Source: an uncultured Clostridia bacterium (lineage in GTDB: Bacteria; Bacillota; Clostridia; TANB77; UBA1234). From it: a DNA stretch of 64,000 nt. Of this stretch, positions 369-4,384 are shown piece by piece; position 1 is the stretch's first letter, and the number at the start of each line of letters is the position of its first letter. Below the pieces are notes generated by a model. The model was not told the DNA's origin. It worked only from the letters and a program-made list of their open reading frames with translations, and did not search any database. The stretch lies in assembly GCA_934149305.1 (NCBI GenBank), contig CAKPEF010000001.1, forward strand, positions 36,748 to 100,747, written 5' to 3'. A program made the translations under genes and the position numbers.

Positions 369-1664
369 ATGTCAGAAAAAATACAAGAAACTAAATCAAG
401 ATTAAAGGAATTAGGGTATTTTGCATCAGAAGATTTAGCAAAAATAGTACTATTATTTGAAGCAGCAGGAAAAAGAGATAAAAAAAGTATTCCAACACTA
501 TTATTACAAGGAAAATCTGGAGCTGGAAAAACATTCTTAGCTGAGACTTTTTCTCAAATGATTGGTGCTGATGAAAAATTCGTACAATGTTTTCCTAGAA
601 TGGGAACAGAGAACTTTCAATATGATGTTAATATCGAAGGTGTAATGAAACAAGATGCAGACAGCTCAATTAAAGCTGGTATATTATTACAAGCTTTACA
701 ACAATCTCAAGAAAGTCCTGTAGTCCTTGTTATAGATGAATTAGACAAAGCAAGACCTGAAGTTGATTCATTTTTATTAGATTTTTTAGAAAATGGAAGA
801 CTAACAACTGGTACAGATACATATGAAAAAGGAAAATTCCCAATTTATACTTTTATTACATCGAATGACAAAAGAGAAATAGATGAAGCATTAATAAATA
901 GAAGTAAAAGAGTTGAAGTTCCTAGACCTAGCAAAGATTTATTTTTAGAAATATTAGGATTACCTGAAAATCACTATTTAGGTTATATTTATGATAAGTG
1001 TCCTAATTTTTCTATAAGACAAGCCAGACAATACATTGAAGATTTAGAAGTTTTAGGAACAGAAATAGATGAAGAAGCATTATCTCAATATATCAATTTA
1101 GATGAATTAGATGTAATGTCATTAGCTGATTTACAGCGAATTTCTGAAATGGAAAATGGAGATTTAGAATTTGAATTACCTGATTTAGAAAGATGTTATA
1201 TTACTATTACTTCTAATAATCAAGAGGGTTGGGTTAAGCTTTTTCAAGATGGAAATAAAGGAAATTTTAGATTATATTCAGATGATAATGAACAAGATAG
1301 AATGTATGTGGATATAGATACAATAGAACAATTACAAATGGCTAGTCAATATATGGATTTTGATGATTATTGCAATAGATATAAAGGCTGGTTTGAATAT
1401 TCATTATCAGATGAAGAAATACAAGCAGATAGTATTATATGGGCAGGAAATAAGAGTAAAAAAGATGGTACAAGATTTGGAATAAAAGTCGAGGAAGATA
1501 AAATGTTTAGAATTGCTATGAATAAAGGAAATACATTCGTTTATTTAGATTCTGCTTCTCCTAATACTTTAGAATCATTCTTAGGTCAACAAAAAGATGA
1601 AATCGAACAAGAATATGATACAGATACAAAATATGGTGATGATGGTAGAGATTATGATGATTAG
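369..1664 (+). CDS. MoxR-like AAA+ ATPase with a ~230-aa C-terminal extension ending in the acidic tail DDGRDYDD
   Basis: Walker A LLLQGKSGAGKTFLAE, Walker B VVLVIDELDKA, sensor-1 FITSND, Arg-finger-like INRSKRV. RBS AAAGGAG upstream of the ATG at 369. Confidence 0.8.
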   Translation: MSEKIQETKSRLKELGYFASEDLAKIVLLFEAAGKRDKKSIPTLLLQGKSGAGKTFLAETFSQMIGADEKFVQCFPRMGTENFQYDVNIEGVMKQDADSSIKAGILLQALQQSQESPVVLVIDELDKARPEVDSFLLDFLENGRLTTGTDTYEKGKFPIYTFITSNDKREIDEALINRSKRVEVPRPSKDLFLEILGLPENHYLGYIYDKCPNFSIRQARQYIEDLEVLGTEIDEEALSQYINLDELDVMSLADLQRISEMENGDLEFELPDLERCYITITSNNQEGWVKLFQDGNKGNFRLYSDDNEQDRMYVDIDTIEQLQMASQYMDFDDYCNRYKGWFEYSLSDEEIQADSIIWAGNKSKKDGTRFGIKVEEDKMFRIAMNKGNTFVYLDSASPNTLESFLGQQKDEIEQEYDTDTKYGDDGRDYDD

Positions 1665-1675
1665 GAGGAATAATA

Positions 1676-2875
1676 ATGGCTCTTCAATATGATATAAATA
1701 AAATATTTGCAGAACTTGAACAACAAGCCAGAAAAAAAAGCAAAAAACATGAAAAAGTTGATCCAACTAAAGAGAATGATCCTATTGAATCACCAGAAGA
1801 TGCTCCACAAACGCAAGAAGTTGCACCTGCTACATCAAAGACTACAGAAGATACACATGGCGGAGATGAAGCATCTAAAGAAATTAAAGATTCTCCAAAC
1901 TCTGTAGATGGTGGTGAAAATCCAGATAAAGAAAACAAAAGTAAGAAAACAAAAAATACTGGTGAAAACGGCAAAGGTGATGGACAAGGTGAAGATTATT
2001 TTATAACAACAGATGGCAAAAATCCTAGTAAAAGCAAACCCAAAACTACTCCAGAAGATTTACAACAAGCTGTTGAAAAATTATTTGAAGAAAAAAAGAA
2101 AAAACAAGATGATTTTAAGAGTCAAAACAGGCAAGAATATTTGAAAAAATACATATTTGAAATTATAAAGAAAATTGCAGCAAAACATGCTGGAATAGAT
2201 AAACAAGATGGTTCAGAAACCTATGATAAAAAACAGATGCTTGGGCATATATTAAAACATCAAAATTATAGATTATTAAGTGATAAATACGATTTAAGAG
2301 ATGCGAGATATGTTCAATTTTTTATTGATACATCTGGAGTTTATGGCTGCGGTTCTAACAAAATATTGCATGAACTTATGCCAGAGGTTATTAGTATGCT
2401 AGAAAGACAAGGTTATGAATGTTATATTGCAGCTTGTGGAAACGGATTTTATCAAAGAGATATGGTTGAAGATGAATATTATGGAACTAGAAAAACACTA
2501 GAAGGTTACAAAACTGGAAAAGTAAGCAAAATAGCTTGCCCTACCCCACAAACTGCAGCTAAAATGGCTAATGAAGCTGAGTTTTCTGTAATACTTGCTG
2601 ATTTTGATGGTTTATCTTCTATTTGCGAAATGGCTAATTTATGTAAAAAAGATAAAATACCATATTTCCTATGTACTGAGGATAGATACCCATGGGAAGA
2701 TCCAACATTACATGATTGGGTTGATCCCGAATTATGTGATTATAATCCTGAACTTGTATATGATGTATCAATGGATGGAAATCCAACTTTAGAACAATAT
2801 GAAGATAGACAATGCTATGATGACTATGAACAAGATGATTATGACCAAGATGATGGTAGGAATTATGATGATTAA
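1676..2875 (+). CDS. VWA-like (degenerate MIDAS) protein with a ~170-aa disordered K/E/T/P-rich N-terminal region; C-terminal tail DDGRNYDD
   Basis: FFIDTSGV (DxSxS-like beta1 motif) and ILADFDG (the TDG-like strand of VWA folds). Start is 12 nt after the ATPase stop with an AGGAGG RBS, so it is translationally coupled. Confidence 0.55.
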   Translation: MALQYDINKIFAELEQQARKKSKKHEKVDPTKENDPIESPEDAPQTQEVAPATSKTTEDTHGGDEASKEIKDSPNSVDGGENPDKENKSKKTKNTGENGKGDGQGEDYFITTDGKNPSKSKPKTTPEDLQQAVEKLFEEKKKKQDDFKSQNRQEYLKKYIFEIIKKIAAKHAGIDKQDGSETYDKKQMLGHILKHQNYRLLSDKYDLRDARYVQFFIDTSGVYGCGSNKILHELMPEVISMLERQGYECYIAACGNGFYQRDMVEDEYYGTRKTLEGYKTGKVSKIACPTPQTAAKMANEAEFSVILADFDGLSSICEMANLCKKDKIPYFLCTEDRYPWEDPTLHDWVDPELCDYNPELVYDVSMDGNPTLEQYEDRQCYDDYEQDDYDQDDGRNYDD

Positions 2876-2889
2876 CAGGAGTTAAAAGT

Positions 2890-3855
2890 ATGATAGATAA
2901 AATTTTAATAACAAAGAAATTAGAAAACTTTTTTATTAAGACTAATCCAGAAAGTTTTCTAAAAGTATTTGTAATCAGTTTTTTATTTGATAAAACTAAT
3001 TATATAGAACCTATTGTAGGTTATGAAAATGCTTTAAATATGTTAGATAAATACATATATAATTTAGAAAATAATATTAAAGCCTTTAAAAAACTAGATA
3101 AATATCATTCTATTTATGCTAAATATGATTTTAAGGCAAAAAGTCTAAAATATTATATGACTAATGATTATAAAAAATTTAAAAATACTTCTTTAAATTC
3201 TGAACAAAAGAAAGTATTTATTATTAAAGAATTTAAAATAATGATGTATAAAGAGTTTGAAACAATTACAAATATTTATACCTTTAATGGAAAAATTGTT
3301 TCTAACAGTTTTTATATTGAGGATATAAATTGTCGTTACCCTGATTATGATGGTGATTTTTCTAATATAATTGATATTTTCTCTGATGTAGAAGTATGCA
3401 ATATTCTTAAACTTAATGATAGAATAAAAACTTATATAGATGAAAACAAAAACTATTTTGTATATTCTACACATATTAGTCAAAGAAATTCAGAAGTAAT
3501 AAACTATGTTTTGTTATGGAGAAATTTTTTAAATAATAAATTATATTATTTTGCAGTAAATAATCCTAAGAAATATTCAGAGAAGTTTATTAATGAGTTT
3601 AATAAAGAATATGAATATATAATATCGAGTGGAAAATATAATTTTATATTAAAAAATAAAGATGTTTTTTCACTTATTGAAAATTATTTACTTCATATAA
3701 GAAATAGAATTGACATTGAAAATAATATACAATATCATCAAGATTTAAGTGTAATATTTAAAATGATGAATCACAAAAAACATCTAACTAAACTGTCAGA
3801 ATATTTATTACATAGTTCAGATTCTAATAATAAATTAAACTATGACAAAATTTAG
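2890..3855 (+). CDS. Hypothetical protein, 321 aa, extremely N/K/Y/I-rich; third gene of the MoxR-VWA operon (candidate effector or sensor)
   Basis: RBS ACAGGAG 8 nt upstream and a 15-nt gap from the VWA gene. No domain I can recognise. Composition is visibly more AT-rich than its neighbours. Confidence 0.5.
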   Translation: MIDKILITKKLENFFIKTNPESFLKVFVISFLFDKTNYIEPIVGYENALNMLDKYIYNLENNIKAFKKLDKYHSIYAKYDFKAKSLKYYMTNDYKKFKNTSLNSEQKKVFIIKEFKIMMYKEFETITNIYTFNGKIVSNSFYIEDINCRYPDYDGDFSNIIDIFSDVEVCNILKLNDRIKTYIDENKNYFVYSTHISQRNSEVINYVLLWRNFLNNKLYYFAVNNPKKYSEKFINEFNKEYEYIISSGKYNFILKNKDVFSLIENYLLHIRNRIDIENNIQYHQDLSVIFKMMNHKKHLTKLSEYLLHSSDSNNKLNYDKI

Positions 3856-3865
3856 GAGGTTCAAT

Positions 3866-3949
3866 ATGGAAAAAAATTTTTTGTTGAAACAGAACAATTT
3901 GATACAAATGTTGCTAATAATCTTAATACAACCAATCCTCTACAAATAA
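3866..3949 (+). CDS. 27-aa hydrophobic micro-ORF MEKNFLLKQNNLIQMLLIILIQPILYK, coupled to the preceding gene
   Basis: AGGAGG at 3854-3859 overlaps the TAG stop of the upstream gene. ATG at 3866, TAA at 3947-3949. Below the ORF-track size cutoff. Confidence 0.3.
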   Translation: MEKNFLLKQNNLIQMLLIILIQPILYK

Positions 3950-4091
3950 CAAATGATACATTGGTTAACGATTTTTTAAATAAAACCGTTTCTTTAGAAT
4001 CTTTGATTGAAAAAGAAATATATAATAACAAATTATAAAATATAATATCAACATATAGTTTAAATATTTGCAAAAATTATATAATATTTTT

Positions 4092-4123: not shown

Positions 4124-4384
4124 CTAACAGTTAATCAATTCAGAATATATAATTTCTTCGACACAATGTTTATAATTATTCATAAGCCCAATCCATTTTA
4201 ACGGGTCAGTATCTTTCAAATTTTCATCAATAGGAGTATAATCAGCCTTTTTATGTTTTTTCAAATGTTCTAGTCTTAAATAACCGCATTTTCCAATATT
4301 GTAATTTTTTTCGTATTCATCCTCAGCTAAATATAAAGCAGGAATAAAATAATCTCCTTCCCTATGATAAGTTATTTCTCTCAT
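4124..4384 (-). CDS. TnpV-like (transposon-associated family) protein, apparently internally truncated to 86 aa
   Basis: N-terminal REGDYFIPALYLAEDE...IGKCGYLRLEHLKKH and C-terminal WIGLMNNYKHCVEEIIYSELI match the TnpV-family pattern (GDYLIP...IGKYGRLR..YLKEH ... W.GxMNN....EEI.LxELIY) recalled from memory. The middle ~40 aa are missing. Confidence 0.45.
   Translation of the reverse strand: MREITYHREGDYFIPALYLAEDEYEKNYNIGKCGYLRLEHLKKHKKADYTPIDENLKDTDPLKWIGLMNNYKHCVEEIIYSELINC

What the first reader, a model, noticed from the sequence alone, without database searches (positions are those of the whole stretch)
1620..2875. Identical C-terminal tail DDGR(D/N)YDD on two consecutive proteins
The ATPase ends ...KYGDDGRDYDD* and the VWA-like protein ends ...DQDDGRNYDD*. 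Both are preceded by D/E/Y-rich stretches (EQEYDTDTKYGDDGRDYDD and YDDYEQDDYDQDDGRNYDD). A shared terminal peptide on two co-operonic proteins suggests a common docking or processing signal, comparable to C-terminal acidic tails that recruit partners (for example the SSB tail). The third protein ends in ...KLNYDKI. This is not a feature of canonical MoxR/VWA pairs.
Basis: seen in the sequence. Interest (0 to 1): 0.6.

Follow-up and report, generated by a model that had tools for sequence, protein, structure and literature searches.

The report
Twin acidic tyrosine tails, ATPase operon
Two neighbouring proteins of an uncharacterised ATPase operon from gut Clostridia really do end in almost the same floppy, acidic, tyrosine-containing tail, but only the acidic/tyrosine character is kept across the wider family, so it looks like a flexible docking tail rather than a precise signal.

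Summary
A (369-1664, AAA_5-type ATPase) ends ...GDDGRDYDD. B (1676-2875) ends ...QDDGRNYDD. That is 7 of 8 end-anchored identities, with chance about 1e-4 even given the tail composition.

In the window's lineage (65-99% identity), Y-D-D-COOH closes 89/120 A and 96/120 B cluster representatives. B tails also vary in the number of YEQDD-like units.

Across roughly a dozen more distant lineages the exact peptide is lost. A D/E-rich tail, usually with Tyr, Trp or Phe, is still present on one or both proteins in most of them, including pairs that lack genes C and D.

AlphaFold2 gives B's last 12 residues pLDDT below 50 (predicted disordered). B's globular domain is a Rossmann-like fold with a MIDAS-like DxSGS...DG signature. 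VWA membership is inconclusive, and MoxR membership proper is not met.

My best reading (confidence 0.4) is that these are end-anchored acidic/aromatic docking tails that compete for one basic site within the A-B machine. The analogy is NorD's C-terminus docking on NorQ, and the T7 gp4 and gp2.5 tails.

The main rival is a non-specific polyanionic low-complexity extension. I class this as a new variant of a known kind, of moderate interest.

The parts
369..1664 (+). Gene A: AAA+ ATPase of 431 aa. Residues about 1-245 form the conserved AAA+ module, residues 250-410 a lineage-variable C-terminal domain, followed by the acidic tail.
   Evidence: Pfam AAA_5 scores 52.6 bits (cut-off 22). AAA_3 scores 24.2, below its cut-off of 27. 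The nearest solved sequences are ClpC/ClpA/ClpB D2 modules and McrB. There are 529 homologues. Conservation map.
1605..1661 (+). A tail: EQEYDTDTKYGDDGRDYDD. It is built of three (E/D)Y-x-D-D-like units. The terminal octapeptide DDGRDYDD is at 1638-1661.
   Evidence: Net charge of the last 21 residues is -8, with 3 Tyr.
1676..2875 (+). Gene B: 399-aa protein with no family assignment. It has an N-terminal helix, a conserved linear motif, a variable low-complexity linker, a Rossmann-like domain and an acidic tail.
   Evidence: No hit in Pfam, PADLOC, NCBIfam or PHROGs. There are 313 close homologues. Only 38 clusters at 50% identity were found among 1.84 billion representatives.
1823..1903 (+). 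Conserved linear motif in B's disordered N-terminal region: APATSKTTEDTHGGDEASKEIKDSPNS (residues 50-76).
   Evidence: H61, G62, G63, D64, E65, E69, S73, N75 and S76 are invariant in the close set. The consensus xTSEDxHGGxEATxxIExSP is still visible at 25-35% identity.
2066..2809 (+). B globular domain (residues 131-378): a Rossmann-like alpha/beta fold. DTSGV follows strand 1 (DxSGS in distant relatives). NGF and ADFDG (D309, D311, G312) are invariant.
2816..2872 (+). B tail: YDDYEQDDYDQDDGRNYDD, a tandem run of Y-x-x-D-D-like units. The terminal octapeptide DDGRNYDD is at 2849-2872.
   Evidence: Residues 388-399 have pLDDT below 50 in the confident model. Net charge of the last 21 residues is -9, with 4 Tyr.
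2890..3855 (+). Gene C: 321-aa basic protein (pI 9.0) with no family assignment and no acidic tail. It belongs to the cassette in the window's lineage and nearby lineages, but is absent from the more distant A-B pairs.
   Evidence: Absent in L078 and L080.
3866..4038 (+). Gene D: small protein of about 57 aa (MEKKFFVETEQF...SLESLIEKEIYNNKL in relatives). In this window it is frameshifted at an A7 run (3870-3876; A8 in L002-L004).

Best explanation
A and B form the two-gene core of a small, uncharacterised family. A is an AAA_5-type AAA+ ATPase. B is its partner, with a Rossmann-like and probably degenerate VWA/MIDAS-type domain.

Both proteins end in an intrinsically disordered, D/E-rich, tyrosine-studded extension built from short Y-x-x-D-D-like units. 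In the window's lineage both are fixed as ...D-D-G-R-(D/N)-Y-D-D-COOH.

I think the tails most likely act as flexible, end-anchored acidic/aromatic docking elements that bind the same positively charged site inside the A-B machine, most plausibly on the AAA+ ring. On that model the six tails of the ATPase ring and the multivalent tail of B compete for the site, giving autoinhibition or a hand-off that couples B binding to ATPase activity.

Shown: the tails exist; they are conserved in the window's lineage; B's tail is predicted disordered; the acidic, mostly aromatic character recurs in divergent lineages; the tails do not depend on genes C and D.

Inferred: that the tails dock at all, that they share a receptor, where that receptor is, and the competition model.
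For: - The terminal peptide is end-anchored and held in the lineage. Y at -3 is found in 99/120 A and 110/120 B representatives; D at -1 and -2 in more than 100/120 of each.
- Some conserved positions carry synonymous codon changes. A keeps AGA and B keeps AGG for Arg, so the two tails are maintained separately.
- In the window the 7/8 identity has a chance of about 1e-4 given the composition. The similarity extends over about 32 residues, from (P)NTLE to the end (16 of 5000 shuffles reach the score).
- D/E-rich tails, mostly with Tyr, Trp or Phe, recur in distant relatives. B examples: P0247, P0248, P0255, P0260, P0272 and P0279-P0283. A examples...LIEDEY (L078)...EEGEYYDD (L079)...EEGYDFEN (L080)...SDNYEED (L092).
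- Tails are present in A-B pairs with no C or D (L078, L080). This places any receptor within A-B or outside the operon.
- The B tail has pLDDT below 50 in a model with mean pLDDT 84.5.
- Precedents from the literature. The extreme C-terminus of NorD docks on the NorQ post-sensor-1 loop, and deleting the last two residues abolishes co-purification; CbbO's C-terminus is likewise required (PMC13036017). [quoted passage not shown]
- A keeps an invariant Arg (R169) in its post-sensor-1 loop, SN(D/G)xR, across all lineages compared. This is a lead only.
Against: - No binding data and no complex model were available, so the receptor is not identified.
- The exact peptide is lineage-specific, and in other lineages the A and B tails differ. 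A shared specific receptor therefore cannot be a family-wide rule.
- A few members lack one tail: A in L016, B on pRSJ17_1, and both in L083.
- B's last eight codons show 3 synonymous against 29 non-synonymous differences among distinct tails, partly from register shifts. Repeat number also varies freely. This is the behaviour of a composition-constrained low-complexity region.
- The NorD C-terminal contact is described as hydrophobic, not acidic.
- The partner-shuffle test for A-B tail similarity (2.90 against 2.39 identities; 11 of 10,000 shuffles reach it) does not control for phylogeny.
Confidence: 0.4

Rival explanations
1. The tails are non-specific polyanionic low-complexity extensions. 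They arise and are resized by slippage of GAT/TAT-rich codon repeats and are kept only for bulk charge, for example solubility, an entropic bristle, repulsion from nucleic acid or membrane, or diffuse electrostatic autoinhibition. There is no defined receptor. The identical ending in this lineage is a by-product of shared repeat units (Y-D-D, G-R-D-Y) and codon bias.
For: - Copy number of YEQDD-like units varies from 1 to about 7 among close B homologues. One A homologue (P0124) has a GRDY duplication.
- Composition, not sequence, is what survives between lineages. In the last 20 residues, D+E is 0.47 in A and 0.54 in B, against about 0.2 in the rest of each protein.
- Most differences in B's last eight codons are non-synonymous.
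- Some members lack one tail.
Against: - End-anchoring of Y-D-D-COOH and of G-R at -6/-5 is stable in A over 78-99% identity.
- The 7/8 identity is about 1e-4 under the tails' own composition.
- Tyr, Trp or Phe is kept within the acid run in most lineages, which pure charge does not require.
- The similarity extends beyond the repeats to the (P)NTLE start.
Confidence: 0.3
2. The tails are carboxylate ligands for a metal site. Either they act as pseudo-ligands of B's MIDAS-like site (DxSxS...D), as acidic residues of target proteins do for VWA domains, or they act as low-affinity cation-binding tails in a chelatase-like AAA_5/VWA chaperone of the CobS/CobT, BchI/BchD or NorQ/NorD type.
For: - B relatives carry DxSGS after strand 1 and an invariant D-x-D-G after a later strand.
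- Weak but recurrent VWA/CobT-class fold hits: CMG2, integrin alpha-X, factor B and phage CobT-like proteins, E 0.006-0.06.
- A hits phrog_249 'porphyrin biosynthesis' at 8.7e-6.
- VWA MIDAS sites take an acidic residue from the partner as the sixth ligand (PMC9976466).
- Rea1 has a flexible D/E-rich region directly before its MIDAS domain (PMC6286127).
Against: - VWA membership is not established. No fold match is significant, and only 1 of 25 members gives a weak VWA_CoxE hit.
- In the window's lineage, where the tail is best conserved, the motif is DTSGV, so the second Ser is lost.
- No metalloenzyme target lies in the cassette.
- In NorD, MIDAS mutations do not affect binding to the ATPase.
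Confidence: 0.12
3. Both tails dock on the third protein C (basic, pI 9.0) or on the small protein D, recruiting it to the A-B pair. This is the first reader's gene-3 idea, analogous to the shared EEVD tails of Hsp70 and Hsp90 binding one adaptor (analogy from general knowledge).
For: - C is the only basic protein in the cassette (pI 9.0, against 4.4 for A and 4.8 for B) and has no acidic tail.
- C and D co-occur with A-B in the window's lineage and in the L020 lineage.
Against: - Acidic/Tyr tails are present in A-B pairs that have no C or D: L078, L080, L092 (A only), and L079 and L090 in phage-like contexts.
- C is split or truncated in many loci of the L050 lineage, where the tails persist.
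- No structural information on C was obtained. Nothing in the PDB matches the C profile at E<=1.
Confidence: 0.1
4. The match is a nucleotide-level feature rather than a peptide: a duplicated DNA segment, ongoing gene conversion between the two 3' ends, or a translational-coupling element overlapping the stop codon and the Shine-Dalgarno sequence of the next gene.
For: - The last 27 nt including the stop codon are 24/27 identical (GATGATGGTAG[A/G][G/A]ATTATGATGATTA[G/A]).
- Each stop codon is followed directly by the next gene's Shine-Dalgarno sequence: TAG-GAGG and TAA-CAGGAG.
Against: - The DNA identity is what codon bias predicts for D, Y and G in an AT-rich genome.
- A keeps AGA and B keeps AGG in L001-L005 as well as in the window. 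L006 B uses CGA.
- Synonymous TAC, GAC and GGC variants occur while the peptide is kept.
- The two junction sequences after the stops differ.
- The tails persist in relatives whose A and B genes overlap instead of having a gap (L078, L080, L090).
Confidence: 0.03
5. The Tyr clusters in an acidic context are phosphorylation or other modification sites, like the C-terminal tyrosine clusters of bacterial BY-kinases (comparison from general knowledge).
For: There are 3 Tyr in the last 21 residues of A and 4 in the last 21 of B (up to 10 or more in relatives), on a P-loop ATPase and its partner.
Against: - A is an AAA+ protein (AAA_5, AAA_2), not a BY-kinase fold.
- No kinase or phosphatase is conserved in the cassette.
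- Tyr is replaced by Trp or Phe at the end of several relatives' tails.
Confidence: 0.03

Closest known systems
NorQ/NorD and CbbQ/CbbO (AAA_5-type MoxR-class ATPase plus VWA partner)
   Same: - An adjacent AAA_5-type ATPase gene and partner gene.
- The partner has a long disordered linker before an alpha/beta domain with a DxSxS-type motif.
[quoted passage not shown]
   Different: - B is much smaller (399 aa against about 640-770), and its VWA identity is unproven.
- No beta-hairpin 'finger' was identified here.
- The tail is acidic, tyrosine-rich, repetitive and disordered, and a near-copy sits on the ATPase itself. That is not described for NorQ or CbbQ.
- No target enzyme lies nearby.
T7 gp4 helicase-primase and gp2.5 SSB acidic C-terminal tails
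   Same: Two different proteins of one machine each carry a flexible acidic C-terminal tail. The tails bind and compete for the same basic patches on a third component, gp5/trx (bioRxiv 10.64898/2026.05.20.726333; PMC10359462).
   Different: The proteins are unrelated and belong to a replication system. There the receptor is known; here none is identified. From general knowledge, the T7 tails end in an aromatic residue, whereas the window's tails end in D-D with Tyr at -3.
Bacterial SSB tail, Hsp70/Hsp90 EEVD, p97 C-terminal tail, proteasomal HbYX (end-anchored C-terminal docking motifs; from general knowledge)
   Same: Each is a short, disordered, free-carboxyl-anchored peptide that recruits partners. 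EEVD is shared by two cooperating ATPases.
   Different: Sequence and residue register differ. HbYX needs a penultimate Tyr after a hydrophobic residue; here the ending is D-Y-D-D. No TPR, PUB or OB-fold receptor has been identified in the cassette.
Rea1/Midasin and BchD/CobT-type proteins: D/E-rich flexible segment next to a MIDAS/VWA domain in an AAA_5 machine
   Same: [quoted passage not shown] The best viral fold hit of B is a phage CobT-like protein.
   Different: In those proteins the acidic region is an internal linker before the MIDAS domain, not a C-terminal tail. It is not duplicated on the ATPase and is not tyrosine-rich.
MoxR-vWA ternary conflict systems (VMAP, iSTAND) with associated C-terminal peptide systems
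   Same: - A MoxR-like ATPase and vWA core with a third conserved protein.
- Mobile or accessory distribution.
- Some systems come with small proteins whose conserved C-terminal peptides include 'RxD' and 'acidic' types (PMC7159879).
- The pRSJ17_1 relative is followed by a small peptide gene, three radical SAM genes and an S8 peptidase.
   Different: - C shows no detectable relation to VMAP or iSTAND.
- No effector domains are fused to B.
- The phyla differ (gut Clostridia against mostly actinobacteria and cyanobacteria).
- Here the acidic peptides are the ends of A and B themselves, not of a processed precursor.

Membership tests
AAA+ ATPase, AAA_5 (dynein-related / NorQ-CbbQ-McrB-type) family | Pfam PF07728 match above the gathering score, covering the P-loop alpha/beta module | tested here: met
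   AAA_5 E 6.4e-14, 52.6 bits against a cut-off of 22, residues 44-178. Walker A is GKSGAGKT, Walker B is VLVIDELD, and there is an SN sensor-1.
MoxR family proper (AAA_3, RavA-like) | Pfam PF07726 match above the gathering score, or closest solved relatives being MoxR proteins | tested here: not met
   AAA_3 scores 24.2 bits, below its cut-off of 27. The PDB sequence search returns ClpC/ClpA/ClpB D2 modules and McrB, and no RavA, CbbQ or NorQ at E<=0.01. One source annotates a homologue as 'MoxR-like ATPase' (P0201).
von Willebrand factor A (VWA) domain | Sequence match to a VWA family profile | tested here: not met
   Window B has no Pfam, NCBIfam or PHROG hit. Only 1 of 25 family members gives a weak VWA_CoxE hit (E 0.016). 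The family profile against PDB sequences returns only low-complexity matches.
von Willebrand factor A (VWA) domain | VWA fold: significant structural match to solved or predicted VWA domains | tested here: inconclusive
von Willebrand factor A (VWA) domain | MIDAS motif DxSxS...T...D at the C-terminal ends of the strands | tested here: inconclusive
   The window has D218-T-S220-G-V222, so the second Ser is lost. Distant relatives have DTSGS or DLSGS. D309, D311 and G312 are invariant. The Thr position is not conserved. The spatial clustering of these residues was not examined.
NorD/CbbO-type C-terminal docking on the AAA+ ring | [quoted passage not shown] | not testable with these tools
   Known for NorQD (PMC13036017). 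Here there are only indirect indications: end-anchored conservation and an invariant R169 in A's post-sensor-1 loop. No multimer prediction was available.
SSB-type / T7 gp2.5-type acidic C-terminal tail | A disordered acidic tail ending in a hydrophobic or aromatic residue, binding partner proteins and/or the protein's own basic cleft | tested here: inconclusive
   Acidic and predicted disordered: met. A terminal aromatic residue is not met in the window, where Tyr is at -3 and the end is D-D. It is met in several relatives (...EDEY...YEDY...EEEW...DDEF...EREF). Binding was not tested.
HbYX proteasome-activator motif | Hydrophobic-Tyr-X at the extreme C-terminus of an ATPase | tested here: not met
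   A ends D-Y-D-D. Tyr is antepenultimate and is preceded by Asp.
BY-kinase C-terminal tyrosine cluster | A MinD/Mrp-type P-loop kinase domain followed by a Tyr cluster that is autophosphorylated | tested here: not met
   A's P-loop domain is AAA+ (AAA_5, AAA_2, AAA). Phosphorylation cannot be tested here.
Known anti-phage defence systems (PADLOC-DB) | Matches of the cassette proteins to models of one system | tested here: not met
   Only A's generic AAA core hits (PDC-M37B 3.5e-9, mad8, TRIP13). B and C have no hits.

The most novel reading that the evidence does not exclude
The A-B pair is the core of a previously undescribed mobile conflict or chaperone module of gut Clostridia and their phages and plasmids. 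The ATPase and its partner carry matching acidic/aromatic C-terminal tails that compete for one site on the AAA+ ring. This would be a tail-mimicry switch, with the ATPase's own tail acting as a pseudo-partner. Such a switch has not been described for AAA_5/VWA machines and would generalise the NorD C-terminus contact.
Probability: 0.15. Interest if true: 0.6.

Novelty: new variant of a known kind. Interest (0 to 1): 0.4.

Why it matters
If the twin tails dock at one site, they would give a simple, testable regulatory principle for AAA_5/VWA-type machines: competition between the ATPase's own tail and its partner's tail.

They would also give an experimental handle (a short peptide) on a cassette whose B, C and D proteins have no family assignment. 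The B family is very small, with 38 clusters at 50% identity among 1.84 billion representatives. It occurs in human- and animal-gut Clostridia, on a Clostridium argentinense plasmid and on phage-like contigs.

If instead the tails are only polyanionic low-complexity ends, the finding is an ordinary compositional feature.

Tried and rejected
- A first AF2 run on full-length B with a shallow alignment gave pLDDT 44.6 and was unusable. It was replaced by the domain construct with distant homologues.
- The afdb50 fold library was not available.
- The metagenome locus scan with the widest alignment failed for lack of a conserved stretch. It was redone with alignment A4.
- Searches for the cassette in viral collections found nothing. 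These were the IMG/VR pattern scans, the degenerate DNA pattern for DG[R]xYDD-stop, and tblastn against INPHARED phages.
- Profile searches of B and C against PDB sequences gave only low-complexity or no hits.
- NCBIfam, PHROGs and PADLOC gave nothing for B, C or D.
- The partner-shuffle test of A/B tail similarity is positive but confounded by phylogeny, so I do not use it as evidence of co-evolution.
- The synonymous/non-synonymous counts on the last eight codons are inflated by register shifts. I use them only qualitatively.
- The L005/P0236 A tail (EIEQDNGRDYDD) looked like a B-to-A conversion, but a 9-residue in-frame deletion explains it.
- The radical SAM gene after D in L012 looks like an unrelated neighbour.
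- Rejected readings: HbYX, BY-kinase Tyr cluster, C-terminal degron (from general knowledge, acidic ends disfavour ClpXP recognition), and a translational-coupling element.
Full report
**What is there.** The region holds a tightly packed, same-strand cassette. Gene A (369-1664) encodes 431 aa, B (1676-2875) 399 aa and C (2890-3855) 321 aa. Each stop codon is followed at once by the next gene's Shine-Dalgarno sequence.
- A ends EQEYDTDTKYGDDGRDYDD.
- B ends YDDYEQDDYDQDDGRNYDD.
- C ends KLNYDKI.

The last eight residues match at 7 of 8 positions, anchored at the C-terminus. With the tails' own skewed composition the chance of this is about 1e-4 (9 of 200,000 within-tail shuffles). A and B are the only two of 76 window ORFs of at least 100 aa with D/E-rich, Tyr-containing ends. 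The resemblance reaches further back, from (P)NTLE in A and NPTLE in B to the end, with alignment score 54 against 31 +/- 6 for shuffles.

**What the proteins are.**
- A has a genuine AAA+ module. AAA_5 scores above threshold, while AAA_3, the MoxR family proper, scores below. Its nearest solved relatives by sequence are Clp/Hsp104 D2 modules and McrB.
- B, C and a fourth small protein D have no hit in Pfam, NCBIfam, PHROGs or PADLOC.
- B's family is very small: 38 clusters at 50% identity in 1.84 billion representatives.
- With a deep alignment, AF2 models B residues 131-399 at pLDDT 84.5. The fold is a Rossmann-like beta-alpha-beta domain, and the last 12 residues fall below pLDDT 50.
- Foldseek gives nothing significant. 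VWA-class proteins do recur among the weak hits: CMG2, integrin alpha-X, factor B and phage CobT-like proteins.
- Distant relatives carry DxSGS after strand 1, where the window has DTSGV. D-x-D-G after a later strand is invariant.

So 'VWA-like' is a reasonable lead but is not established.

**Conservation of the tails in the window's lineage.** The 120 best A and 120 best B cluster representatives (65-99% identity, uncultured gut Clostridia) were compared.
- Y-D-D-COOH closes 89 A and 96 B representatives.
- G[RK][DN]YDD closes 83 A and 44 B representatives.
- Many B tails read GYEYDD or DYEYDD instead.
- B tails differ in the number of YEQDD-like units, from one to about seven.
- At the DNA level, synonymous variants (TAC, GAC, GGC, CGA) keep the peptide. 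A uses AGA and B uses AGG for the Arg in the window and L001-L005, so the two ends are not being homogenised by gene conversion.
- Non-synonymous differences are nevertheless frequent, especially in B.
- The stable positions are Tyr at -3, Asp at -1 and -2, and an acidic residue at -4.

**Conservation across the family.** Ninety-two loci were fetched; A/B tails were tabulated for the 78 sources, with further distant pairs read individually. Tail pairs by lineage:

| Lineage | A tail | B tail |
|---|---|---|
| window | ...GRDYDD | ...GRDYDD or GYEYDD |
| L020 | ...DEDYEKDEKERE | ...YYDRDYDD |
| L050 | ...DDDYDVLEEREF | ...DDYDDYE or ...DDIDY |
| L041 | ...ENEYDRY | ...NNDYEER |
| L078 | ...LIEDEY | ...DDYEDY |
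| L079 | ...EEGEYYDD | ...DDDDYYDEK |
| L080 | ...EEGYDFEN | ...LLDYED |
| L090 | ...GDEDDED | ...EYEDDWE |
| L016 | none | ...DDSYEHDD |
| pRSJ17_1 (L092) | ...SDNYEED | none |
| L091 | mixed charge | mixed charge |
| L083 | no acidic tail | mildly acidic, no Tyr |

The identical peptide is lineage-specific. The acidic, mostly aromatic tail is a recurrent family trait, though not a universal one. L078 and L080 have only A and B, so whatever the tails do does not require C or D.

**Context.** The cassette sits in different chromosomal places.
- It lies after infC-rpmI-rplT in L087-L089, before it in L081 and L082, and elsewhere in the window.
- It is often next to mobile or defence-type genes: a weak TnpV hit at window 4124-4384; rve, TnpV and a relaxase in L080; GmrSD_N in L078; a tyrosine recombinase on pRSJ17_1.
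- It also occurs on phage-like contigs (L079, L083, L090).

It behaves as an accessory, mobile module. No match was found in IMG/VR or INPHARED.

**Mechanism.** The best-supported reading is that these are flexible, end-anchored acidic/aromatic docking tails acting within the A-B machine. Two documented precedents shape this view.
[quoted passage not shown] Removing two residues abolishes co-purification, and CbbO behaves similarly (PMC13036017).

By analogy, A's six tails and B's multivalent tail would compete for one basic site, giving autoinhibition or a hand-off. A keeps an invariant Arg in its post-sensor-1 loop, but that is only a lead. Docking, the receptor and competition are all inferred, and none is shown.

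The principal rival is that the tails are composition-constrained polyanionic low-complexity ends with no specific receptor. This fits the repeat-number changes and the fast sequence turnover. It fits less well with the end-anchored Y-D-D, the retained aromatic residues and the improbable identity in this lineage.

A MIDAS pseudo-ligand or metal-binding role is possible but rests on an unproven VWA assignment, and the motif is degenerate exactly where the tail is best conserved. Docking on C is disfavoured by the C-less pairs. Nucleotide-level explanations and Tyr phosphorylation are unlikely.

**Verdict.** The feature is a new variant of a known kind, namely C-terminal docking tails in AAA+/partner machines, carried by an otherwise unannotated cassette. 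Interest is moderate.

Noticed in passing
window 3866-4038 (A-run 3870-3876): A fourth gene D follows C with the same TAG-GAGG junction. In about 40 related loci it encodes a conserved protein of about 57 aa (MEKKFFVETEQF...NDFLNKTVSLESLIEKEIYNNKL). In the window, and in the identical contig L084, an A7 run (A8 in L002-L004) shifts the frame. The ORF from the ATG stops after 27 codons and the rest of D continues in another frame.
   Followed up: partly
window 1823-1903 (B residues 50-76): A strongly conserved short linear motif, ...TSxT(S/T)ED(T/V/I)HGG(D/N)EA(S/T)K(E/D)Ixx SPN, sits inside B's otherwise low-complexity N-terminal region. It is recognisable even in relatives at 25-30% identity, so it is more conserved than the C-terminal tail. 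It may be the element that engages the ATPase.
   Followed up: no
window about 1996-2000 (B residue about 108) and homologues P0006-P0118: B has a hypervariable K/E/S/G-rich insertion site. Closely related B proteins carry 0 to about 90 extra residues here, giving lengths of 399-533 aa.
   Followed up: no
L020-L037, L081, L082 (between A and B): In one lineage an insert of about 0.8-1 kb lies between A and B. It encodes a YezG-like (PF04634) immunity-type protein, and part of B's N-terminus is duplicated.
   Followed up: partly
window 4124-4384 (-): The 86-aa ORF just downstream of the cassette gives a weak TnpV (PF14198) hit. A homologue follows the cassette in L003 and L004. TnpV, an rve integrase and a relaxase flank the distant pair in L080. 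Flanking genes otherwise differ between loci that share 98% identical cassettes.
   Followed up: partly
L092 (Clostridium argentinense plasmid pRSJ17_1, NZ_CP014175.1 113956-126522): This is the only hit in an isolate replicon. It has an A-B pair annotated 'AAA family ATPase' and 'hypothetical protein', preceded by a tyrosine recombinase. It is followed by a 52-aa peptide gene, two radical SAM genes, a radical SAM/SPASM gene and an S8 peptidase. This resembles the peptide-processing modules linked to MoxR-vWA systems in PMC7159879.
   Followed up: no
L087-L089 and L081/L082: The cassette lies immediately downstream of infC-rpmI-rplT in one lineage and immediately upstream of the same operon in another. 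This suggests a preferred insertion neighbourhood.
   Followed up: no
L050, L051, L053, L054, L059, L061, L064 (gene C): In many loci of one lineage gene C is split into two or three ORFs (217 + 87 aa), while sister loci (L066-L070) have it intact at 304 aa. Gene D was not detected in this lineage.
   Followed up: no
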